From assembly GCA_042564455.1 (NCBI GenBank), contig JBHPLC010000001.1:23172-87171 (forward strand): a stretch of DNA of 64,000 nucleotides, read 5' to 3'. The position numbers were made by a program, and so were the translations under genes. Numbering within the stretch: position 1 is the stretch's first letter; every line of letters begins with the position of its first letter. Under the pieces are notes generated by a model. It was not told the origin of the DNA. It searched no databases and was given only the letters and a program-made list of their open reading frames with translations. Below are positions 4,236-59,176 of the stretch, in pieces. The stretch is from Candidatus Zhuqueibacterota bacterium. GTDB lineage: Bacteria > SM23-31.

Positions 4236-4895
4236 ATGACGATCGGCCTTACAAAACGCCAGAAGGAAATATTGGAATTTATCCAATGGAAGTTAACCGA
4301 CCAGGGTTATCCTCCGAGTTTCAGAGAGGTTGCCGCCCATTTTGGTATAAGATCGACAAACGGAGTAAAAGTCCACTATGATGCGCTGGAGAAAAAAGGA
4401 TATATTCGAAGAAATCCCCGTCTTGCAAGAGGTATTGAGCTGACTGAACTTGCCGGAGCACCGTCTCCGGCCGATACTGCCCCGGGATTATACAGTATTC
4501 CTCCCTCAGATGTCAGCCACGTCCCGGTAATAGGCAGGGTTGCTGCCGGAGCACCGATACTTGCTGAAGAAAATCTTGACGGATATGTAGTTGTTGATAA
4601 TTCATTTATTCATGGTGACGGTGTATTTGCTCTTGTTGTTAAGGGTGAAAGTATGAAGGATGCAGGGATTTTTCACAGTGATTATGTGCTTGGTAAGCCC
4701 GCCTCTACCTATTTTCCCGGTGATATTGTTGTTGCAATAATAGGAGATGAAGCCACGGTAAAGCGTTATTATCCCGAAGGAGGACGTGTAAGGCTGGAAC
4801 CTGCAAACCAGGCTTACGGACCAATAATTGTTGAAGAAAATATGGCGGACTTCCGTATTGCGGGAAAAGTTATCGGCGTTATGCGCCGGATGTGA
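4236..4895 (+). CDS. lexA: LexA repressor (S24 peptidase)
   Basis: N-terminal winged HTH 'LTKRQKEILEFI...GYPPSFREVA', cleavage-site region 'VAAGAP', catalytic 'GESM' serine and a 'VKRY' lysine context. Ends in TGA. Confidence 0.93.
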   Translation: MTIGLTKRQKEILEFIQWKLTDQGYPPSFREVAAHFGIRSTNGVKVHYDALEKKGYIRRNPRLARGIELTELAGAPSPADTAPGLYSIPPSDVSHVPVIGRVAAGAPILAEENLDGYVVVDNSFIHGDGVFALVVKGESMKDAGIFHSDYVLGKPASTYFPGDIVVAIIGDEATVKRYYPEGGRVRLEPANQAYGPIIVEENMADFRIAGKVIGVMRRM

Positions 4896-4947
4896 TGTTT
4901 TTTCGGTATGAGCAGGTTTTATCTGTGTTGATTATGGAGCAGTTTCT

Positions 4948-5202
4948 ATGATGTACGAAGACATATTTCAAACAGTAGACGTAATTTCGCTTTTTCAGCA
5001 TGGTAAGTTAATTCCCCTGAGATTTAAGTGGAATGAGCGTGCTTATAAAATTTCAAAAATTAACGGTGGATGGGTTAGTGATGAGGGCACCAATCGATAT
5101 TACCATTTCTCAGTAATGGCTGATGGTCCCGATTGTTATGAATTGACATTTGATCTGCGTAACATGACATGGGAGCTTTCCCGTGTCTGTATGGATGGAT
5201 AA
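4948..5202 (+). CDS. Small hypothetical protein (84 aa) between lexA and dinB
   Basis: ORF with GGAG about 10 nt upstream. It is tightly packed between lexA and dinB on the same strand. I recognise no family. Confidence 0.5.
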   Translation: MMYEDIFQTVDVISLFQHGKLIPLRFKWNERAYKISKINGGWVSDEGTNRYYHFSVMADGPDCYELTFDLRNMTWELSRVCMDG

Positions 5203-5217
5203 AAAAATGAGAAAAAA

Positions 5218-6486
5218 ATGAGCTGGCACCCGCCCGAAGAGGTAAAAAATAGTCTCCCGGCAAGAAGAATCCCGAATATAGACGACAGAAAAAGAACAAA
5301 GCAGACAGACAGAAGAATAGCGCATATAGATATGGATGCATTCTTTGCAGCTGTAGAACAGCGGGATAATCCGGCTTTGAGAGGCAAACCTGTTATAGTG
5401 GGAGGAAAAGCAGGAGAAAGAGGAGTCGTATCAACCTGCTCATATGAAGCAAGAGAATACGGCGTTAGATCAGGAATGTCGTTAACAGAAGCACAAAGAT
5501 TATGTCCTCACGGTGAATATGTACGAACTCACGGAAAAAAATATACATATACAGCAGTTCAGCTGATTGGAATATATCATAAATATACTCCGGTAGTCGA
5601 ACCGGTTAGTATCGATGAGGCATACCTGGATATTACAGGCTGCAGCAAAATATATGAGTCGGAAGAGAAATTTGGAAAAACAATTAAAAAAGAGATTGAA
5701 AACAGGACAGGTCTGACCGGAACTGTCGGGATAGCACATAATAGAATATACGCAAAGCTGGCTACAGGAATGGAAAAACCTGACGGGCTGACTATAATAA
5801 ATAAAAGGAAAATTCCAGATAGAGTATATCCTTTACCGGTTGAAAAATTATGGGGAATAGGAGCGAGTACTCAAAAAACTTTAAATAAATTAAAAATAAT
5901 TACGATAGGAGACCTTGCAAACTGCCCGGTAAACATCCTGAAAAAATATTTTGGAATAAACGGGGAGCATTTATCTCTGGTTGCAAAAGGAGAAAGCAGT
6001 TCGGAAATAATAAACAATGATAACAGAGAAGATGAAAAATCAGTGGGAAATGAGAGGACCTTTGCCGTAGATGAGACAAATATTGATATAATAATGAAGT
6101 GGCTGATGAAATTATCTCAAAAGGTCGGCAGAAGACTCAGGAAAGCCGGATTCGGAGGAAAAACCGTTACTTTCAAGCTTAGATATTCCGATTTTGAAAC
6201 TCTTACTCACAGGGAGACATTTCCAGGTCTGATGTGGGATGACAAAGAAATATATAATGCAGGGAAGATGCTTTTTGAACAGGTCTACAAAACAGGAAGA
6301 CCGGTAAGATTGATCGGAATATCTGTTTCAAAATTAATCAGGCTGGTTTTCAGCGATAATAATTTAATTCATCAGGGGGATCTTTTTGAATCAGAAAATA
6401 AAAAGCGGAAGGTTACTCCGGTTATGGATAAATTGAGAGATAAATACGGTGAGAAGATCATATCGAGATTCAGTGGTTTGACCTGA
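5218..6486 (+). CDS. dinB: DNA polymerase IV (Y-family)
   Basis: 'IAHIDMDAFFAAVEQRDNPALRGKPVIVGG', 'SIDEAYLDIT' and the little-finger region. The only in-frame ATG gives a ~30-aa N-terminal extension before the conserved start motif. Ends in TGA. Confidence 0.9.
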   Translation: MSWHPPEEVKNSLPARRIPNIDDRKRTKQTDRRIAHIDMDAFFAAVEQRDNPALRGKPVIVGGKAGERGVVSTCSYEAREYGVRSGMSLTEAQRLCPHGEYVRTHGKKYTYTAVQLIGIYHKYTPVVEPVSIDEAYLDITGCSKIYESEEKFGKTIKKEIENRTGLTGTVGIAHNRIYAKLATGMEKPDGLTIINKRKIPDRVYPLPVEKLWGIGASTQKTLNKLKIITIGDLANCPVNILKKYFGINGEHLSLVAKGESSSEIINNDNREDEKSVGNERTFAVDETNIDIIMKWLMKLSQKVGRRLRKAGFGGKTVTFKLRYSDFETLTHRETFPGLMWDDKEIYNAGKMLFEQVYKTGRPVRLIGISVSKLIRLVFSDNNLIHQGDLFESENKKRKVTPVMDKLRDKYGEKIISRFSGLT

Positions 6487-6491
6487 TCTTC

Positions 6492-7865
6492 TCATATCCA
6501 GGGGAATATTCCTGAAACCCCATACTCTTTTCTTCCGATCAGCTTTTTCATATCCCCTGATATTTGTTTTTTGATCGTCAGGAAATCCAGTTCATTATAA
6601 AATTCCCACCTGTCTATCAGTTCACCGACAAGTACGCTTAATAGGATATACCAGTAATATTCTCCGCTTGTGATCTGCATTGTCAATATTGGAATAAAAA
6701 AGCCGAATATTATTCTTATTGCGCTTACTGCTATCCTGCCTTTTTTCTTATTTTTGTAATTGAAACTTCTACGGAAAGTATATAGAAAAAGCCTGATAAA
6801 ACCGAACCAACCGATTATTATCCACTGCTCTGTAAAAATTCCGATAAGATATAATCCTGATAAGATTGCCGATGCGCTGTGGATCTTTGTTACAGCTATC
6901 CTGGTTTTTATTTTATATACTTTATCGATCGAAAACAGCGTCAATATCCCAAGACTTGCTGCTGTCCAGCCGATTACTGTTTCGTGAAATATCAGATATA
7001 TTAATGAGATAGTAAAGAATAAGTTTGTTAATAGTATTTCTCTGCTTATCCATGATCTTTTTATATTTATTATCGCATTGACAGATCTTTCCGGTTTTCC
7101 AAGATGAAATGTACTTATTAATAATCCAGTGACTGCAATCGGGAAAAATGATAGAATATGAATCGAATAGTCAGAGATAAGACTTCCTGTTAAATAGGCT
7201 GTTAGAAACGACATTATCAGCGTAAATATTAACAGCGGCCATTCCTGCGTTATCGATACTTTTTTATCGTTATTTGTCTTAATTCCATTATATTTTTCTC
7301 TTCTGTCTTTATCTTCACCAGACAATTTGGGAAATACATTGTTTTTCCTTAAATGCTTTATTTCTATAACCGGTCTGATCCCGATCTCCGGAAAACCCGG
7401 GTATTCAATTTTCTTTTTAAAATCACTGATATCTACAGTTTCCAGTGCTCCTGTCGGGCAACCGGTTACACATGCCGGCTTGAATCCGTTTTCTTTCCGA
7501 TGATCGCAGAACGTACACTTCTGCATTACTTTTGCTTTGGTGTCATATTTTGGTGCATCATAAGGGCAGACCCAGGAGCAGTATCTGCATCCGATACATT
7601 TCTCAGGATCGATTATTACGTTTCCGGAATCTTTATTCTTTGAAATAGCCCATGCCGGACAATTTTTCAGGCAGACGGGTTTTTCACAGTGGTTGCAGGA
7701 GACTGAATAGTAAAATACAGGTATCCCTGGGACATTCGCTTCATTGAACGTTTCAACAATACGCCAGCTGTTTCCCCAGCCAAGATCGTTTTCGATCTCA
7801 CAGGCTAACTGACAGGCCTGACAGCCTGTACATTTATTCAGATCTATTTTAAAACCTATCTGCAT
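6492..7865 (-). CDS. Four-cluster [4Fe-4S] ferredoxin subunit (DmsB-like) fused to a polytopic membrane anchor (DmsC/NrfD-like)
   Basis: The N-terminal ~190 aa contain four Cys clusters (CTGCQACQLAC, CNHCEKPVCLKNCP, CIGCRYCSWVCP, CTFC...CVTGCP). The C-terminal ~260 aa consist of multiple hydrophobic helices. The start was taken at ATG 7865 (MQIGFKIDLNKC), 1 nt after the upstream gene's TGA. Confidence 0.8.
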   Translation of the reverse strand: MQIGFKIDLNKCTGCQACQLACEIENDLGWGNSWRIVETFNEANVPGIPVFYYSVSCNHCEKPVCLKNCPAWAISKNKDSGNVIIDPEKCIGCRYCSWVCPYDAPKYDTKAKVMQKCTFCDHRKENGFKPACVTGCPTGALETVDISDFKKKIEYPGFPEIGIRPVIEIKHLRKNNVFPKLSGEDKDRREKYNGIKTNNDKKVSITQEWPLLIFTLIMSFLTAYLTGSLISDYSIHILSFFPIAVTGLLISTFHLGKPERSVNAIINIKRSWISREILLTNLFFTISLIYLIFHETVIGWTAASLGILTLFSIDKVYKIKTRIAVTKIHSASAILSGLYLIGIFTEQWIIIGWFGFIRLFLYTFRRSFNYKNKKKGRIAVSAIRIIFGFFIPILTMQITSGEYYWYILLSVLVGELIDRWEFYNELDFLTIKKQISGDMKKLIGRKEYGVSGIFPWI

Positions 7866-7866
7866 A

Positions 7867-9921
7867 TCAGATCTTTTTAATTTCGACAAGATTATCATGA
7901 AAAGCTGCACCGTAACCCATATCTGTTTCTCTTTCTTTAGATAAGTAGTTAACGGTTCCGTTTTCCGTTATCCACCAGCCATTTGTAACGGCAACGCATC
8001 CGGCTTTAATTCCATGATCTATTTTAGAATTTATTTTTAGTCTGCCTCTATCGTTAAAAATTTCAATCAGGTCACCATTTTCTATATTACGGTTTTCCGC
8101 GTCCTTTGGATTTATTGAGATATAAGGTTTTTCGCTGACATTCTTTATCATCTGAAGATTGTTGAACTGAGAATGAATTCTGTTTTTTGTATTAGGTGTC
8201 AGGAAATATAAAGGATATTTATCCGATAATTCTTTATTCGATACAGTTGATTCTTCAGACTCCTTAAAATCTGGTAAAACATTTGTTTCCCAGAGCTCAG
8301 AGGCTTGTTCAGATAATAATTCTATTTTACCTGACGGTGTGCTGAACTTTAGATCAGACCATGCGGTTTCTACATGATACGGTGAAAGAACAGGCCCTTC
8401 TTTTAGTTTTTCTAATGAAAGTTCCGGAAAAGGTTTTAAAAAACGTTCCAGATAATTCTGAATATCATCCTCAGAAGGTGCCGGTATATAGCGGTCGATA
8501 TCTTCCTTAGAAAAACCGAGTCGTTTTGCCAAATGATGATATATCTCCGTTTCAGGTTTTACTGATCCCGGTGGATCTAAAATCTTCTGTTTAAGCTGAA
8601 TATAAGTATGCCAGTATGCATTGATAATATCAGTCTGCTCGAACATAGTTTTTGCGGGTAAAATGATGTCGGCTTCCCTGGCTGTATCGGTTAAGAACTG
8701 ATCCACAACAACACGCAGTTCGAGTGAACGTAAAGCTTCAAGAGTTTTGGGGGTTTCGGGATTGGTTGTAACCGGATTAGCGCGTTCAACCCAGATCATT
8801 TTTACAGGTGGATCTTTTTGTTCTATTATCCCGCTGCCGAGTTTTGCAACTGAGATCGATTTTCTTATAATTCCGTCACCTGTTGCTGGAGGATATGATG
8901 CAACCGGATCTTTTATATCATCAAAGATGTGACTCTGGAGGTTTGCATACAGCCAACCACTGCCGGATTTGCCGATATTGCCTGTTATAGCATTAAGAGC
9001 AAGGATAGACCGCATCGTCTGTCCGCTGTTTGTATATCTCTGCATACCGAACCCGGCAGAAATAGTCATTGGTTTTATCGTGCCGATGTATTCGGTCAGC
9101 CGTTTAATATAATTCTCAGGGATATCTGTGATCTCAGAGACTTTATCCGGAGTAAATTCTTCGATATTTTTTGAAAATTCTTCATAACCTTTTACATGTT
9201 TACTTATGAATTCCCTGTCTGCATAGTTGTTTTTGATCAGCTGATTCGCAATACCTAAAGCTAAAGCGCCGTCAGTTCCCGGTCTCGGCTGGATCAATAA
9301 TTCGGCTCTTTCTGATGATGGAGTTCTTCTCGGATCAATAATTATCAATTTTGCACCGTTTTCCAGTGCATTGTCTATAAAGGACATCTGGTGAATATTT
9401 GTCTCAGCAGGGTTTTTACCCCATATAATTATTAATTTGGCTTTCTCGATGTCCCATGGAGCACTGTTCTTATTTTCACCAAGAGTAAGACGGGTTGCTT
9501 CCAATCCGGACTGCCAGCAAAGATCTCCGTATGTAGTAGTATATCCTCCGTAAAGTCTCCAGAAATTTGAAGATACCGAGTTCAAAAGTCCTTTAGTACC
9601 GCTGGCGGAATAAAATAAAACGCTCTGCGGTCCATATTCCTTTTTGAAGTATTGCAGCTTTTCAGACATGATATCTAAAACTGAATCCCATGAAATATCT
9701 TCAAATTCACCTGTCTTATTGTTTTTTATGAGTGGACAAAGAATTCTTTCCGGAGAATAAACACGCTCAATATAACTTAGTCCCTTTAAACAGACACCCT
9801 GTGAAGTGGCTTTATTTTGAGGATGGCCTTCAATATTTTTGATCTTTCCATTATCTACATAAACGGTCATACTGCAGGTACTGTAGCAGTTTCTCGGGCA
9901 GGCAGTTAAAAATGTTTTCAT
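7867..9921 (-). CDS. Molybdopterin (bis-MGD) oxidoreductase catalytic subunit, DMSO-reductase superfamily, no Tat signal
   Basis: 684 aa with an N-terminal FeS motif 'CPRNCYSTCS...GVCLKG'. Length and organisation are typical of MopB enzymes. There is no RRxFLK leader. Substrate not inferable. Confidence 0.8.
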   Translation of the reverse strand: MKTFLTACPRNCYSTCSMTVYVDNGKIKNIEGHPQNKATSQGVCLKGLSYIERVYSPERILCPLIKNNKTGEFEDISWDSVLDIMSEKLQYFKKEYGPQSVLFYSASGTKGLLNSVSSNFWRLYGGYTTTYGDLCWQSGLEATRLTLGENKNSAPWDIEKAKLIIIWGKNPAETNIHQMSFIDNALENGAKLIIIDPRRTPSSERAELLIQPRPGTDGALALGIANQLIKNNYADREFISKHVKGYEEFSKNIEEFTPDKVSEITDIPENYIKRLTEYIGTIKPMTISAGFGMQRYTNSGQTMRSILALNAITGNIGKSGSGWLYANLQSHIFDDIKDPVASYPPATGDGIIRKSISVAKLGSGIIEQKDPPVKMIWVERANPVTTNPETPKTLEALRSLELRVVVDQFLTDTAREADIILPAKTMFEQTDIINAYWHTYIQLKQKILDPPGSVKPETEIYHHLAKRLGFSKEDIDRYIPAPSEDDIQNYLERFLKPFPELSLEKLKEGPVLSPYHVETAWSDLKFSTPSGKIELLSEQASELWETNVLPDFKESEESTVSNKELSDKYPLYFLTPNTKNRIHSQFNNLQMIKNVSEKPYISINPKDAENRNIENGDLIEIFNDRGRLKINSKIDHGIKAGCVAVTNGWWITENGTVNYLSKERETDMGYGAAFHDNLVEIKKI

Positions 9922-12857: not shown

Positions 12858-13970
12858 ATGAGAAAAAGCTATTTTCCGGTCTGCTTTATATTCCTTTCTA
12901 TAATTTTATTTTCCTGTGCTGCTGAAAAAGTTGTTATTGAACAGGATATTCACTTAACAACGGTTGAGCAAAAAACAGACTTTCCGGGTAATGCAAACAA
13001 AATTTGGTTTTCAGAAGCGGATCCAAAAATATTTTATACTGATCCGCATAATGGAAGTTTTTATATTTCAAATAATGAAGGAAGAACCTGGACGAGAAAA
13101 ACTACATCGAAAAAGTTATTTAGAGTTAAAGGAGATGTTAGTAATCCCAAAGTTTTTTACGCTTATGAAAATGGTTGAAAAAATTCTTTTCTCTATAAAT
13201 CCACAGATAGTGGATCAAATTGGACTAATATAAGAGAAGTATGTAAAATTAGAGGCTTGTATTCAGATTATAACACAGTTATTGTCTTTTTTAAAGATAA
13301 GAATGGGTATCTTGAATTATCAAAAAGTATAAATGGAGGTTTGTCATGGGAAGAGAATACATTAGCCGGCAGAAAGGGGGATATTACAAAAATAGTTATA
13401 GATCCTCTTAATAAAACCAATATTTATATATTAGGCTCTTATTCAATAGGATCCAGAAATATCCCAATTATTTATAAAAGTACTGACAAGGGTGAAATAT
13501 GGCATTCAATCCTTGATATAAATACTGAAAGGAAACTTAAAGCATTGAATTTTGCAGATAATGTCTATTTCCGTAATGATTTTCTTGTAATTCAAGAAAA
13601 GAAGACTGAAAATGAACTGTCATTAAGAAATTTTTGTATATTTGATATGGTATTTGATCCGAGTGACAATAAGTCTATTTATGTATCAACATCAGCCGGT
13701 CTAATAAAATCCGCAGATTCAGGGAAGACCTGGCATGCAGTTAACAATTTGCCATTCACAAAGCTGTTTTTATCAGACAAAAAAGTTTTATATGGAGTAC
13801 ATAGCAGAGAAGTAAAAAAATCATACGATTATGGAAAAAACTGGGTAGTGGTTTTTTCTGGTGAAAACACAAGGCTCTTCAGCATTAAATCTTTATCAGG
13901 AAATAACATAACAAACAAACTGTATATATCTACAAGCAATGGATTGAAAATAATTGATTTTGAAAAATGA
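12858..13970 (+). CDS. BNR/Asp-box beta-propeller lipoprotein, single in-frame TGA at 13176-13178 (recoding candidate or pseudogene)
   Basis: Lipobox 'ILFSC'. Track ORFs 12858..13178 and 13257..13970 are in the same frame with only one TGA between them. The intervening codons encode 'KNSFLYKSTDSGSNWTNI' (Asp-box SxDxGxxW). Further Asp boxes follow: KSTDKGEIW, KSADSGKTW, KSYDYGKNW. Confidence 0.6.
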
Positions 13971-13990
13971 AAATCTTCACAGGGGGCAAA

Positions 13991-15088
13991 ATGAAGAATA
14001 AGACTTATGTGTTGTTATGCCTTATGATGACTGTTTTTATTTTTAACTGCAGTACATCAAAGGAATTTGTGGCAAAAGAACTTGATACCGGACAGTGGTT
14101 AAACATTAATGGTCCGATATGGATATTATCGACTTCGGCTGAAAATCCTGAAGTAATGTATGCCTGCAGCGGTAAAAATATTTGCAGATCCGATAATAGG
14201 GGTTTGGATTGGACAAAATTTACAGCTCCAAAAACTTTTGTTGTAATGAGTACAGATATAAAAAACCCTAATGTTGTTTTTGCCGCCCCAGGCGGTTGAG
14301 GCAACACTGATGTTTATAAAACCACAGATGGTGGTTCAGCATGGAAAGCAGTAAAAAGTCTGTGTTATATCAGAGATATCGCTTCTGCCGGTAATAAAGT
14401 GTATGTGGCCTACAGGAATAAAGACAACTCTTTCCCGGCGATAGCGACCAGCAAAGACGGGGGACAATCCTGGAAAGATATAATAATTGGAAAAGCAACG
14501 GGTAATCCGGCTGCGATATACCTTGATCCCAAAAATTCAGAAAATGTATTTGTTGCTGGAAACATCAGGAAGAGCGGCAGAAATGTCGGAGTAATCTACA
14601 AGAGCACCGATGGTGGATTGAATTGGAGAGAAGTATATATTAATGAACTTGATAATGACCAGAGTATAAGTGATCAGTTTCAGTATGGTGATCCGATCAG
14701 AAATATTGTTAATGGACAGTCAGGTGTGGTGTTTTTAAGAACCTTGCCTGTGTCAACCGTACATTATTTTGTTGACATCTGCGTTAATCCGAAAAAACCT
14801 AGTGAAATCTATGCGGCAGCAGGAAACGGATTGTTCATATCAGAGGATTTTGGTGATAACTGGAAAAAGTTTCGCGCTGGAAAGTTCTCAAAAGTATGTG
14901 TATCCGAAGAGGGAGAAGTTTTTGGTTTAATGGACAATAGTGTGATTTACCTGGATAATTCAGGAAGTGAATGGAGAAAAATAAATACCATTAAATCATC
15001 AAATCAATATACAGATTTTATAGTTGATTCAGAGAACAGGAAATTAATTTTAGGTTCCTACGGAGGAATTCAGACAATAAATTATTAA
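13991..15088 (+). CDS. BNR/Asp-box beta-propeller lipoprotein paralog, single in-frame TGA at 14297-14299 (recoding candidate or pseudogene)
   Basis: Lipobox 'IFNCS', with AGGGGG upstream of ATG 13991. Track ORFs 13967..14299 and 14399..15088 share a frame. The intervening codons encode 'GNTDVYKTTDGGSAWKAV'. Further Asp boxes follow: TSKDGGQSW, KSTDGGLNW, ISEDFGDNW. Confidence 0.6.
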
Positions 15089-56196: not shown

Positions 56197-56390
56197 GAAT
56201 GGTTATTCTCCATATCAGTTATTAAAAAGTTGGGATATTGTTTTCTTAGATTCTGACATCAATTTAATAAATGACCGTGTCAATCGCAAATATAATACCG
56301 AATTATTGAAGCCATATTTCTAACAACGGTTTTTATTAGTTTTGTAGACCTTGTGCTCAGATAAATTTAATTATTTACATAGCATTTATC

Positions 56391-56517
56391 ATGCAATTCA
56401 GGAGGTATTCTTTTTATTTATTATTTTATTCACCACAGAAGTGTAGAAGTGCAGTGTGAAGGTATGAAATATCCTGAAATAGAATTGATAAATTACACTT
56501 TCACTAAAAGAATGTAT
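56391..56517 (+). repeat. Intergenic conserved element R2 (copy of R1)
   Basis: See R1. It shares TTATTCACCACAGAAGTGTAGAAGTG and the flanking blocks, in the same orientation. Confidence 0.7.
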
Positions 56518-57009
56518 GCCTCAACTTTTTAAACCAATGACTTCAACTTGTTCTGACGAGTTCAATATGCAAAGCCATATTTCAGCGTATTTTATTATTT
56601 TACACAATAATGAAAATTAATTTGACTTCTCTTATAAAAAAAACATGACAATTGTTTTTGTGAATATTATACTATTTATCAGTCAGAATGATGTCTGTGT
56701 GTGGGGTATAAGGCGGACTCTGGCTAACTTCAATAAATGTTCTAATATCAAAGTATTTCTGCTAAAATATTATTCTGAAACATTTTTGAGCTGGCCTGAC
56801 AGTAATATATTAATTAAGTATGAATTTCGATTATTTTTCTGTTCTTCATTAAGTAATATTATGAGGATATAGGGAATATCTAACAGTATATTGCACCAGT
56901 GTTAATATATCATTAGTATCATAAAAAATATTCAATATTCTATGGAACAAAATCTATTTTTATTTGTAACAATGATATAACCATTAATAAATAGTCCATT
57001 GATCTGGTA

Positions 57010-58557
57010 GTGAATATGAATTCTGCTGGTTTAAAAATATATTTTTGCTGTTGTTGGTTTCTTTTTACACTGCTTATATCCGTATACTCATGCAAAAAAT
57101 CACCAACCGAGCCTGTTAACTCAAAATCGGTAATTAGGAGTATTTCTGCCGATCCATCCTATTTAGACTATCTTTACTCGGACACATCAGCTTATTCACT
57201 TATAACTGTTTCCGCATATGATCCAGATGGTGATAAACTTACTTTCAGCTTTTCAGCATCAAAAGGTGAAATACGTGATGTGTCGGACAGCACTGCAAAG
57301 TACTTTCCTGAAGAATTCACTGGTATGGCAGAAGTCACCTGCAGTGTGAGTGATGGGGAATTGACCATTGAGGATGAAGTAGGTATTTTCGTAAATTACA
57401 AGGAGAATATTCCGCCTAGAATAAAAGGATATTTCAGGCATCCGCATAATACGTTCATTGATGAATTTGGAGTAGTTAATCCGGTTGTATTGGAGGTAAT
57501 CGCAGAGGATTCTAATAATGATAAGTTGACTTTTACATTCGAGGCAGAACAGGGAATTTTATCTGAGCAAGACAGCAATACAGTAGAATATACCGCACCG
57601 GCAGGAGTTGGAGATTATCTAATAAACTGTATTGTGACTGACTGATTTGATTCTGATTCAGGGAATTTAACAGTAAATGTATCAGAATTATCGTACCATC
57701 TTCAGCATTACACAAGGATAGCATTTGCTTCCGACAGGTCAGGGAATTATGAAATATATACTATGCGTCCTGACGGATCGGACCTTAAGAGATTAACTAC
57801 CAGTCCAGGTTCAGATACTGAGCCTGACTGGTCTCCTGATGGATCAAAGATCGTTTTTACATCGACACGCAGCGGAAGCAGTGATATATGGTTAATGGAT
57901 GCGGACGGATCTAATCAGACTCAAATTACAGATATTATTCATTCAGAATTTTATCCTCGTTGGTCACCTGACGGATCGAAAATAATGTTTACAGTTGATA
58001 GTTTTCTTGCGATAGATTTACATTTAGTAAATCCTGATGGTTCAAATATAGAATTTACTCAGTTCAGAAGATATCCATATGCAACAAGATTTGGGGATTG
58101 GTCTCCTGATGAATTAAATGTTGTATTTTCATCACGCGTTTATAGTGAGTTTAATTTATTCAAATCCAATATTAATGGTAATACATGGATCCAAGTGACT
58201 TTTGATGATAAAAGAGAATACTACCCTTCCTGGTCACCTTTATGAGATGAGATCGTATTCAGATCGGAAAGAACAGAGGGTTATTCTACAAGGGATATAT
58301 TTAAGATAAATACAGACGGAAGCGGATTGGTAAATTTATCTAATACCGAAGTTCATGATGATCATCCTGCCTGGTCACCGGATGGACAGATGATAGTTTT
58401 CGATTCAATGAGGGACTGGCCACCGGGATATGTAGATCCTCACGTTATTATATACACGGAAATATATATGATGAAATCAGACGGGACTCAACAAACGAGG
58501 CTGACTTTTGTTAAATCCCGGAATATAACACCTGCCTGGTCACCGATAATTAAATAG
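57010..58557 (+). CDS. Lipoprotein with two Ig-like domains and a TolB-like WD40 propeller; two in-frame TGAs (57643-57645, 58243-58245)
   Basis: Lipobox 'VYSCK'. Track ORFs 57010..57645, 57763..58245 and 58327..58557 are all in one frame and are separated only by single TGAs. The codons after each TGA continue the repeats ('IAFASDRSGNYEIYTMRPDGS', 'DEIVFRSERTEG...INTDGSG'). WSPDG repeats run throughout. Confidence 0.6.
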
Positions 58558-58611
58558 CAGTAAAACCATCATTAACTGATTTTCTTCACAAAAAGGGATG
58601 GAACGCCTCAG

Positions 58612-58655
58612 AAACCGGGATAGCTTAAGTATTATGGTTATCCCGGTTTTACTTT
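58612..58655 (+). terminator. Intrinsic terminator
   Basis: AAACCGGGATA (58612-58622) / TATCCCGGTTT (58639-58649) followed by T-rich sequence. Confidence 0.7.
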
Positions 58656-58914
58656 TATGCTGGAAGTAAACTTATTTCAAGCGAGAATGCATATGACACT
58701 TCCAATCCTGGAGTATTATATTCCAATAAAATACCTGATTTTACAAGAAAGGCGGCCCTTAACGAGTCGCCTTTTTCATGTGAGTTAAGTAATAATCTGG
58801 GATTTCTTACTTTCCTTAGGCGGAGAAAAGTACTTCTTAATAACCTTCTTCTCAAGTTTGCCTGCCTGTGACATGGCCTAGGCGGACAAATCCAGTCAAA
58901 GCTATAAATCAATT

Positions 58915-58950
58915 ACAAGGACTCAGAGCTTAAATCGGAATCCTTTTTTT
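58915..58950 (+). repeat. Copy C of the tRNA-terminator element
   Basis: ACAAGGACTCAGAGCTTAAATCGGAATCCTTTTTTT. The upstream 'AAATCCAGTCAAAGCTATAA' resembles the copy-B flank (AATCCAGGTGTC...AAAGTATAA) with the T-arm/acceptor segment deleted. Confidence 0.55.
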
Positions 58951-59176
58951 ATGGCATAAATAGCCATTAACTATCATAGTTTTTGGTGAAATTATACCAG
59001 AATTATGTTGCTTTATTTTTGTTGTATATGCCAAATGAAGTTTAATTAAGAATTTTTCCATATATTATTGAAAATGGCAATGAAATATATTATATTGTGC
59101 AATTCGATGTGAATTACATCGCTAACAAGAGTAATCTTGCCTTAAACATATATCTTTTCAAGTAAAGGAGATATGA

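What the first reader, a model, noticed from the sequence alone, without database searches (positions are those of the whole stretch)
57010..58557. A third secreted propeller gene (Ig-like domains plus TolB-like WD40) has two in-frame TGAs, both falling on Gly columns of its own internal repeats
57010..57645, 57763..58245 and 58327..58557 are one frame interrupted only by TGAs at 57643-57645 and 58243-58245. The sequence after each TGA continues the domain. After the first, 'FDSDSGNLTVNV...IAFASDRSGNYEIYTMRPDGSDLKRLT' finishes the second Ig-like domain and opens a canonical TolB blade. After the second, 'DEIVFRSERTEGYSTRDIFKINTDGSGLVNLS' continues another blade. Internal repeats give a direct read-out of the expected residue. 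'AEVTCSVSDGELTIEDEVGIFV' aligns with 'YLINCIVTD*FDSDSGNLTVNV' (star = Gly). The blade motif WSPDG(S/Q)(K/M)I(V/M)F aligns with 'WSPL*DEIVF' (star = Gly in 3 of 4 sister blades). All four premature stops in the window are therefore TGA, none is TAA or TAG, there are no frameshifts, and all lie in low-GC genes for exported beta-propeller lipoproteins. Random pseudogenisation in an AT-rich genome would be expected to give a mix of stop types. Alternative explanations are UGA=Gly decoding as in code-25 lineages (for example genes imported from such a donor), leaky read-through, or four independent first-position mutations of GGA/AGA to TGA.
Basis: partly seen in the sequence, partly recalled or inferred. 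Interest (0 to 1): 0.8.

Follow-up and report, generated by a model that had tools for sequence, protein, structure and literature searches.

The report
Opal-interrupted propeller lipoprotein gene, KSB1 bacterium
One gene for an exported TolB-like propeller lipoprotein is broken only by two TGA codons sitting exactly where its relatives have glycine. The pattern is too orderly for random decay, yet the genome otherwise uses TGA as a normal stop, so this points to read-through of TGA or very recent inactivation, not a different genetic code.

Summary
Window 57016-58557 (+) is one 513-codon frame with two in-frame stops, both TGA, and no frameshift.

It encodes a lipoprotein with two Ig-like domains and a six-bladed PD40/TolB propeller. 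Both TGAs fall inside domains, at glycine columns. Site 2 is at least 90% Gly in 50 homologs, and the sister blades use GGA there.

The window belongs to an NCBI 'candidate division KSB1' MAG that annotates the pieces as separate proteins.

The code-25 reading fails at genome level. TGA ends 8 of 36 intact genes at the expected C-termini, and none of their 17,353 codons is TGA. The homologs are not from Patescibacteria, and codon usage matches the neighbours.

Chance decay also fits badly:
- All four in-frame stops in the window are TGA (p about 0.009).
- Both stops in this gene arise from GGA-type columns (joint p about 4e-4).
- The two other interrupted genes, 26%-identical paralogs, carry TGA at the same column (p about 0.003).

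Best reading (about 0.4): GGA-to-TGA changes tolerated because UGA is partly read through, possibly as Gly. Plain recent pseudogenes come next (about 0.3). The reads, the tRNA set and orthologs could not be obtained, so this stays unresolved.

The parts
57016..58557 (+). Whole reading frame of the lipoprotein gene (513 codons plus TAG); GTG at 57010 is an alternative start
   Evidence: a single frame with two internal TGAs; the public annotation starts the first piece at 57016 (MFC1553054.1).
57016..57093 (+). Signal peptide with lipobox-like LLISVYS-C; Cys26 is codon 57091-57093
   Evidence: Read directly from the sequence. The stretch LLISVYSCKKSPTE is identical in paralog P0003. No signal-peptide predictor was available.
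57127..57399 (+). Ig-like repeat 1 (residues about 38-128), containing VSD-G(GGG)-ELT
   Evidence: Pfam Big_9 residues 60-115 and Cadherin_5 residues 66-120; codons.
57400..57690 (+). Ig-like repeat 2 (residues about 129-225), interrupted before its last strands
   Evidence: Internal repeat alignment with repeat 1 and with P0003.
57643..57645 (+). In-frame TGA 1 (codon 210), at the Gly of the V(S/T)DG motif; Arg in paralog P0003
57709..58554 (+). Six-bladed PD40/TolB-like beta-propeller (residues about 232-513). WSP motifs at residues 272, 316, 362, 406, 453 and 508; the last closes the ring with the N-terminal strand
   Evidence: Pfam PD40 E=3e-31; TolB structures, e.g. 4r40, E=7e-20; 132-141 nt DNA repeat family D1.
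58243..58245 (+). In-frame TGA 2 (codon 410), at the Gly of WSPDG in blade 4
   Evidence: Column at least 90% Gly in 50 homologs; sister blades use GGA three times and GAA once.
58555..58557 (+). Terminal TAG
12858..13970 (+). Gene A: BNR/Sortilin-like propeller lipoprotein with in-frame TGA at 13176-13178. It ends in TGA 13968-13970, overlapping gene B's ATG
13967..15088 (+). Gene B: paralog of A (26% identity) with in-frame TGA at 14297-14299, at the same alignment column as in A
13199..13215 (+). 6-bp hairpin AUCCAC-AGAUA-GUGGAU starting 20 nt after gene A's TGA
   Evidence: It is formed by Asp-box codons. Synonymous-resampling p=0.04.
14320..14336 (+). Matching hairpin AACCAC-AGAUG-GUGGUU after gene B's TGA, with one compensatory pair (U-A to A-U)
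   Evidence: Synonymous-resampling p=0.08.

Best explanation
What is shown: 57016-58557 is a single gene of a standard-code 'candidate division KSB1' bacterium. It encodes an exported lipoprotein with two Ig-like domains and a six-bladed TolB/PD40 propeller. The two interruptions are real opal codons in the deposited assembly. Each is one G-to-T step from GGA, the glycine codon that the family and the gene's own sister blades use at that column.

What is inferred: these are GGA-to-TGA substitutions that persist because UGA is partly read through in this organism. The cause would be an opal suppressor tRNA (anticodon UCA, most simply a glycine tRNA, which would restore the original residue) or unusually leaky termination. 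A reduced amount of full-length protein would then still be made. The same would apply to genes A and B. Genome-wide, UGA remains a stop.
For: - One continuous frame, no frameshift, and intact blade motifs through to the C-terminal closing strand.
- Truncation at either TGA would cut a domain: Ig repeat 2 before its last strands, or the propeller after 3.5 of 6 blades. The fragments are therefore not natural products. Homologs are continuous at both points.
- All four gene-internal stops in 64 kb are TGA. P is about 0.009 under any tested mutation bias.
- Both stops in this gene fall on Gly columns whose sisters use GGA. GGA makes up only 21% of the one-step precursors of TGA. The joint probability is about 4e-4.
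- Genes A and B are only 26% identical but carry their single TGA at the same column. P is about 0.003 if the mutations were independent. The identical nucleotide runs around the site are too short for gene conversion.
- No simple mutational bias yields TGA only. GAA, AAA, CAA and TCA are abundant, so TAA should dominate. Selection must therefore be distinguishing TGA from TAA and TAG, and read-through would do that.
- Suppressor tRNAs are reported in 0.3% of standard-code bacterial genomes, and tRNA-Trp variants that read UGA are widespread (PMC13092985).
Against: - No suppressor tRNA, RF2 gene or sel gene could be examined. The window holds only tRNA-Met, and the rest of the MAG could not be fetched.
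- No ortholog DNA was found, so conservation of the TGAs across genomes is untested.
- The other 36 genes, including three large intact BNR propeller genes, contain no TGA. Any suppression must be weak or tolerated only in a few genes.
- The internal TGA-AAA of gene A has the same downstream context as its terminal TGA-AAA, so context does not separate read-through from termination.
- No read-through-promoting RNA structure follows either TGA of this gene.
- Paralog P0003 has Arg, not Gly, at site 1. It ends prematurely just before a conserved Trp, which hints that this family does decay.
- The probabilities are post hoc.
Confidence: 0.4

Rival explanations
1. Plain pseudogenes: recent, independent nonsense mutations have inactivated three dispensable secreted-propeller genes, or the sampled population carries null alleles. 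Nothing reads the TGAs. The TGA-only, Gly-column and same-column patterns are coincidence.
For: - This is the simplest reading. The deposited annotation already splits the genes into fragments (MFC1553024/25/27/54/55).
- The gene families are redundant. A 63% paralog exists in the same MAG and three intact BNR propeller genes lie in the window.
- Paralog P0003 also looks truncated: it ends before the Trp of a WSP motif, and no downstream fragment is annotated.
- There is no recoding signal after the TGAs of this gene.
- TGA is a working stop elsewhere in the window.
Against: - The joint probability of all-TGA, both gene-C stops from GGA, and the same column in A and B is about 1e-6 under uniform mutation. 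No tested bias raises P(TGA) above 0.32 per event.
- Four nonsense lesions and no frameshift is itself an atypical spectrum.
- Three interrupted genes among about 43 is a high density.
- No further decay is visible in 1,256 codons.
Confidence: 0.3
2. Foreign genes from a donor that reads UGA as glycine (code 25: Absconditabacterales/BD1-5). They were acquired by the KSB1 bacterium and are dead or poorly expressed on arrival.
For: - The TGAs fall on Gly columns. Four TGAs against 84 GGN codons in the three genes is a plausible code-25 usage.
- The carriers are at the low-GC3 end of the window.
- Gene C is flanked by 813-nt and 620-nt AT-rich spacers.
- TGA is restricted to these genes, while 36 others have none.
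Against: - No Patescibacteria relatives were found. The best hits are 35-44% identical and, where named, come from Acidobacteriota, Chloroflexota, Gemmatimonadota and Bacteroidota. The closest relative is a paralog in the same MAG.
- Gene A terminates in TGA with an ATGA start overlap, a standard-code arrangement.
- A and B sit in a same-strand peptidase cluster (M28, A, B, M16, M16) with short spacers.
- GC3 matches the neighbours.
- No mobile-element marks or flanking repeats were found.
Confidence: 0.08
3. Sequencing, assembly or consensus error: the true codons are GGA (or another NGA codon).
For: The sequence comes from a MAG. The reads could not be inspected. Genes A and B share the local context GGT-TGA.
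Against: - The rest of the window is clean. Long ORFs up to 993 codons are intact and AT-rich homopolymer tracts cause no frameshifts.
- The four contexts share no motif beyond TGA.
- From my own knowledge, G-to-T transversions are not the usual systematic consensus error of current platforms.
- Errors would not pick out Gly columns of three particular genes.
Confidence: 0.07
4. Selenocysteine insertion: the UGAs are Sec codons served by downstream SECIS hairpins. This is at best relevant to genes A and B.
For: - A and B conserve the TGA.
- A 6-bp hairpin with a G-containing 5-nt loop follows about 20 nt downstream, with one compensatory pair. It is found only at that Asp-box.
- Third-position identity peaks just after the TGA, 0.67 against a mean of 0.41.
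- A Cys 22 residues downstream is conserved in both genes.
- Selenoproteins are reported from KSB1 MAGs (PMC13582414).
Against: - No homolog has Cys at any of the four columns. Gene C's columns are Gly or Arg.
- The hairpins are weak: p=0.04 and 0.08 for A and B, 0.18 and 0.64 for gene C. They are formed by Asp-box codons.
- There are no sel genes in the window.
Confidence: 0.04

Closest known systems
TolB / PD40 beta-propeller proteins (Pfam PF07676; e.g. PDB 4r40 TolB)
   Same: Six WSPDG-type blades with N/C-terminal closure. Pfam PD40 E=3e-31; TolB structures E=7e-20.
   Different: A lipoprotein with two N-terminal Ig-like (Big_9/cadherin-like) domains in place of the TolB N-domain. It is not next to tol-pal genes. 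Two in-frame TGAs.
Genetic code 25 (UGA = Gly) of Absconditabacterales/BD1-5 (Patescibacteriota class JAEDAM01)
   Same: In-frame TGA at conserved glycine columns of otherwise intact genes. This is the same kind of evidence that first revealed code 25.
   Different: Here TGA is also the working terminator of about 22% of genes and is absent from 17,353 codons of 36 other genes. The phylum is KSB1. The tRNA-Gly(UCA) and RF2 status are unknown. In the sources read here, code 25 is tied to that one class (gTranslate preprint).
Opal suppression in standard-code bacteria: suppressor tRNAs (Eggertsson and Soll 1988, as cited in PMC13092985), glyT-derived UGA suppressors (my own knowledge), and 4-bp-anticodon-stem tRNA-Trp
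   Same: UGA stays a stop, but individual in-frame UGAs are translated at partial efficiency. Suppressor tRNAs are reported in 0.3% of standard-code genomes.
   Different: No suppressor has been seen here. The TGAs are concentrated in three lipoprotein genes, and one site is shared by two ancient paralogs, which looks maintained rather than accidental.
Bacterial selenoprotein genes (UGA plus SECIS)
   Same: An in-frame UGA in a standard-code genome. A and B have a small hairpin at a compatible distance.
   Different: The columns are Gly/Arg, not Cys. There is no significant structure after gene C's TGAs.
Nonsense pseudogenes in MAGs
   Same: ORFs split relative to homologs and annotated as fragments.
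   Different: Only one stop type, no indels, non-random columns.

Membership tests
PD40/TolB-like beta-propeller | Repeated PD40 blades that match the Pfam model and solved TolB propellers | tested here: met
   PF07676 scores 107 bits against a cutoff of 20.9. 13 TolB chains match at E<=3e-17. There are five WSP-motif DNA repeats spaced 132-141 nt apart, plus a sixth WSP at the C-terminal end.
Bacterial lipoprotein | Signal peptide ending in a lipobox with an invariant Cys | not testable with these tools
   A hydrophobic N-terminus and ...LLISVYS-C26 are visible and conserved in P0003. No SignalP/LipoP-type predictor was available.
Code 25 genome (UGA = Gly) | In-frame UGA at conserved Gly columns | tested here: met
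   Both sites of this gene qualify. The sites in A and B are indeterminate.
Code 25 genome (UGA = Gly) | UGA not used as a terminator, and in-frame UGA spread across genes | tested here: not met
   8 of 36 intact genes end in TGA at the expected C-termini. Gene A ends in TGA (ATGA overlap). There are 0 TGAs in 17,353 codons of the intact genes.
Code 25 genome (UGA = Gly) | tRNA-Gly(UCA) present and RF2 (prfB) lost | not testable with these tools
   The window has only tRNA-Met. The rest of the MAG is unreachable.
Code 25 genome (UGA = Gly) | Placement in Patescibacteriota class JAEDAM01 | tested here: not met
   The proteins are deposited as 'candidate division KSB1 bacterium'. The window encodes a large-genome repertoire: GroEL, LexA/DinB and a GH127/arabinofuranosidase cluster.
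Selenoprotein gene | UGA aligned with Cys in homologs | tested here: not met
   The columns are Gly or Arg.
Selenoprotein gene | SECIS stem-loop shortly downstream of the UGA | tested here: inconclusive
   Gene C: no structure beyond synonymous-codon controls (p=0.18 and 0.64). A and B: a small shared hairpin (p=0.04 and 0.08).
Nonsense pseudogene | ORF disrupted relative to intact homologs | tested here: met
   P0003 and 50 homologs are continuous at the two sites.
Nonsense pseudogene | Neutral lesion spectrum (mixed stop types, indels, random columns) | tested here: not met
   Four of four stops are TGA, there are no indels, the sites are Gly columns, and A and B share a column.
Opal-suppressed gene | A full-length product is made; a suppressor tRNA or leaky termination is present | not testable with these tools
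   This needs the full tRNA set, proteomics or ribosome profiling.

The most novel reading that the evidence does not exclude
UGA has a dual meaning in this KSB1 bacterium. It is the normal terminator for most genes, but it is decoded as glycine in a small set of exported propeller lipoprotein genes. At least one site has been maintained in two paralogs since an ancient duplication. That would be a gene-restricted or incipient code-25-like reassignment outside Patescibacteriota, possibly used to throttle expression.
Probability: 0.2. Interest if true: 0.85.

Novelty: new variant of a known kind. Interest (0 to 1): 0.55.

Why it matters
Every known bacterial UGA reassignment is genome-wide and goes with loss of RF2, in small, reduced genomes. 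If UGA is translated here, this would be a free-living-type, standard-code bacterium that keeps UGA as a stop yet translates it, apparently as glycine, in a few genes. That would be a candidate for the ambiguous-intermediate stage of codon reassignment. It is directly testable, because the MAG, its reads and possibly metaproteomes exist.

There is also a practical point. Annotation pipelines split such genes into 'hypothetical protein' fragments, as happened here, so the pattern would go unnoticed.

If the genes are only pseudogenes, the finding is ordinary, apart from an odd lesion spectrum.

Tried and rejected
- Ortholog DNA: scans of genome contigs, metagenome contigs and viral contigs found only relatives at 24-42% identity and none with the sites. 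tblastn of A, B and C against all fetched loci showed no informative in-frame stops. L004, the best N-terminal match, is an unrelated 209-aa lipoprotein.
- Reaching the MAG itself: exact-product look-ups for P0003, P0121, GroEL and the symporter all returned 'not on record'. Neither the paralog's stop codon nor the genome's tRNAs could be checked.
- Protein searches: all three word-index searches and the full HMMER representative search gave no close ortholog of A, B or C beyond same-MAG sequences.
- RNA signals: Rfam found only tRNA-Met. Folding downstream of each TGA gave z-scores of -0.75 to +0.32. Synonymous-codon resampling was not significant for gene C.
- Programmed frameshifting was rejected. 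The downstream homology continues in the zero frame, and no RF2-like slippery site is present.
- Gene conversion between A and B was rejected. The identical runs around the TGA are at most about 8 nt.
- Mutational-bias explanations were rejected. Transition bias and GC-to-AT bias leave P(TGA) at 0.30-0.32 per nonsense event. By my own reasoning from the codon counts, a pure G-to-T bias would still favour TAA through GAA and TCA.
- Decayed gene remnants in the intergenic spacers: none found by tblastn with 316 collected proteins.
- Flanking repeats or mobile-element marks around gene C: none convincing.
The blade count therefore rests on motifs and DNA repeats.

Full report
**Observation**

Window 57010-58557 (+) translates as one frame of 516 codons. 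It has two internal stops, TGA at 57643-57645 and TGA at 58243-58245, and a terminal TAG. The ATG at 57016 gives a 513-codon gene and is the start used in the public annotation.

I scanned all six frames for long open segments joined by one stop. Four such stops lie on gene strands (13176, 14297, 57643, 58243) and all are TGA. The rest lie antisense to genes or between genes.

**What the gene is**

- The N-terminus is hydrophobic and ends in LLISVYS-C26, a lipobox-like motif (read from the sequence).
- Two Ig-like repeats follow (Pfam Big_9 and Cadherin_5).
- Residues about 232-513 form PD40 blades (PF07676, E=3e-31). The closest solved structures are TolB propellers (E=7e-20).
- WSP motifs occur at residues 272, 316, 362, 406, 453 and 508, and show up as a DNA repeat with 132-141 nt spacing. 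This is a six-bladed ring, closed by the C-terminal strand.
- TGA 1 (codon 210) cuts Ig repeat 2 before its last strands. TGA 2 (codon 410) cuts blade 4. Neither truncated product could fold as a domain.
- Relatives are continuous at both points, so the gene is not normally split.

**Expected residues at the two sites**

Site 2 is the Gly of WSPDG. The sister blades read GAT GGA, GAC GGA, GAT GGA and GAT GAA. The column is at least 90% Gly in an alignment with 50 homologs.

Site 1 is the Gly of the V(S/T)DG motif. It is GGG in the gene's own repeat 1 and Gly in most Ig-like homologs on other contigs. The closest relative, P0003, has Arg there in both of its repeats. Gly and Arg are the two amino acids with NGA codons, so TGA is one first-position change away from either.

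**Source organism**

The middle fragment is identical to NCBI protein MFC1553055.1, and the N-terminal fragment to MFC1553054.1. Both are from a 'candidate division KSB1 bacterium' MAG, on a contig of 112,764 bp. Fragments of genes A and B are MFC1553024, MFC1553025 and MFC1553027. The depositors' pipeline therefore annotated the pieces as separate proteins.

P0003 (MFC1553490.1, 63% identical, on a contig of 64,329 bp) has an accession only 435 away, so I take it to be a paralog in the same MAG. It ends at '...YGD', exactly before the Trp of a WSP motif, and is not labelled partial. No downstream fragment of it was found. Its DNA could not be obtained, so its stop codon is unknown.

**The genome is not code 25**

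- Of 36 intact genes, 8 end in TGA.
- In LexA, the molybdopterin oxidoreductase, the Na/sulfate symporter and the M20 peptidase, the TGA comes 4-9 residues after a complete C-terminal Pfam domain.
- One gene ends in TGA followed directly by a second stop.
- Gene A itself ends in TGA, overlapping gene B's ATG (ATGA).
- The intact genes contain 17,353 codons, 1,416 of them Gly, and no TGA. If TGA had the share of Gly codons seen in A, B and C (4 of 88), about 64 would be expected.

**No sign of import from a code-25 donor**

- Non-self homologs are 35-44% identical for gene C and at most about 40% for gene B. Where they carry names, they come from Acidobacteriota, Chloroflexota, Gemmatimonadota, Bacteroidota and similar groups.
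- GC3 of A, B and C (0.23, 0.34, 0.30) lies within a continuum with the intact neighbours (0.27-0.35).
- A and B lie inside a same-strand peptidase cluster (M28, A, B, M16, M16) with spacers of 135-197 nt.

**Random decay also fits poorly**

- Given the codon content of A, B and C, a random nonsense change yields TGA 30-32% of the time under every bias tried. Four of four therefore has p of about 0.009.
- GGA makes up 21% of the one-step precursors of TGA. All-TGA together with both gene-C stops arising from GGA has p of about 4e-4.
- A and B are 26% identical, yet their single TGAs fall at the same alignment column...ENG*KNSFLYKSTDSG and ...PGG*GNTDVYKTTDGG. For independent hits, p is about 0.003.
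- There are no frameshifts and no further lesions in 1,256 codons.
- These figures are post hoc. Even so, their product is about 1e-6, far below what selecting from many scanned windows would explain.
- No mutational bias gives TGA only. Some selection must therefore spare TGA relative to TAA and TAG. That is what partial read-through of UGA would do.

**Which residue would be inserted**

Gly would restore both sites of gene C. For A and B the column lies in a variable loop with no consensus across 35 Asp-box repeats. In both genes the analogous position of blade 4 is AGA (Arg).

Selenocysteine is unlikely. No homolog has Cys at any of the columns, and no structure beyond synonymous-codon controls follows gene C's TGAs (p=0.18 and 0.64).

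A and B do share a small hairpin starting 20 nt after the TGA. It has one compensatory pair, occurs only at that Asp-box, and coincides with raised third-position identity. The statistics are weak (p=0.04 and 0.08).

**Verdict**

The anomaly is real and non-random, and the code-25 and import readings are not supported. I rank the explanations as follows:
- about 0.4: GGA-to-TGA changes tolerated through opal suppression or leaky termination in a standard-code genome;
- about 0.3: ordinary recent pseudogenes;
- smaller weights: import, sequencing or assembly error, and selenocysteine.

Suppressor tRNAs are reported in 0.3% of standard-code genomes, and UGA-reading tRNA-Trp variants are widespread (PMC13092985). 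The mechanism therefore has precedent. The gene-restricted pattern, and the possibly conserved site in A and B, would be the new element.

The decisive data could not be reached with these tools: the reads, the MAG's tRNA, prfB and sel genes, a genome-wide stop census, orthologs and peptides.

Noticed in passing
window 13176-13178 and 14297-14299 (genes A 12858-13970, B 13967-15088): Two tandem BNR/Sortilin-like lipoprotein paralogs, only 26% identical, each carry their single in-frame TGA at the same alignment column. In both, GGT precedes the TGA. Both also conserve a Cys 22 residues downstream that their distant homologs lack.
   Followed up: partly
window 13199-13215 and 14320-14336: A matching 6-bp hairpin (loops AGAUA and AGAUG) starts 20 nt after the TGA in both A and B, with one compensatory U-A to A-U pair. 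None of the other 10 Asp-boxes in these genes forms it. Third-position identity between A and B peaks here (0.67 against a mean of 0.41). Significance is weak (p=0.04 and 0.08).
   Followed up: partly
window 13967-13970: Gene A's terminal stop is itself TGA, in an ATGA overlap with gene B's start. One gene therefore holds both an internal and a terminal TGA, each followed by AAA.
   Followed up: no
protein P0003 (MFC1553490.1), another contig of the same MAG: This 63%-identical paralog of the gene ends after 368 residues, exactly before the conserved Trp of a WSP blade motif. It is not marked partial, and no downstream fragment is annotated. It may be a further interrupted member of the family; its stop codon is unknown.
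   Followed up: partly
window 21122-47839: A sugar-utilisation cluster of higher GC (0.42-0.54, against 0.30-0.39 in the flanks). It holds a LacI regulator, an FGGY kinase, a class II aldolase, an isomerase, an SSF transporter, two GH127 beta-L-arabinofuranosidases, a melibiase/NPCBM protein, an alpha-L-arabinofuranosidase, an M61 peptidase and two roughly 900-aa Sortilin/BNR propeller proteins. All are intact.
   Followed up: partly
window 56197-57009 and 58558-59176: The gene is flanked by long AT-rich spacers (813 nt at about 29% GC, and 620 nt). They give no Pfam, Rfam or homolog signal and no terminator-like site. A 75-aa ORF at 56645-56872 has no family match.
   Followed up: partly
window 6492-9921 (-): A molybdopterin oxidoreductase (683 aa) is followed by a fused 4Fe-4S/DmsC-like anchor protein. 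The two overlap by 44 nt and both end in TGA. The oxidoreductase has no in-frame TGA, so nothing here suggests selenocysteine.
   Followed up: no
window 4236-6486: An adjacent LexA and DinB (impB/mucB family) pair forms an SOS-type module. Both genes end in TGA.
   Followed up: no
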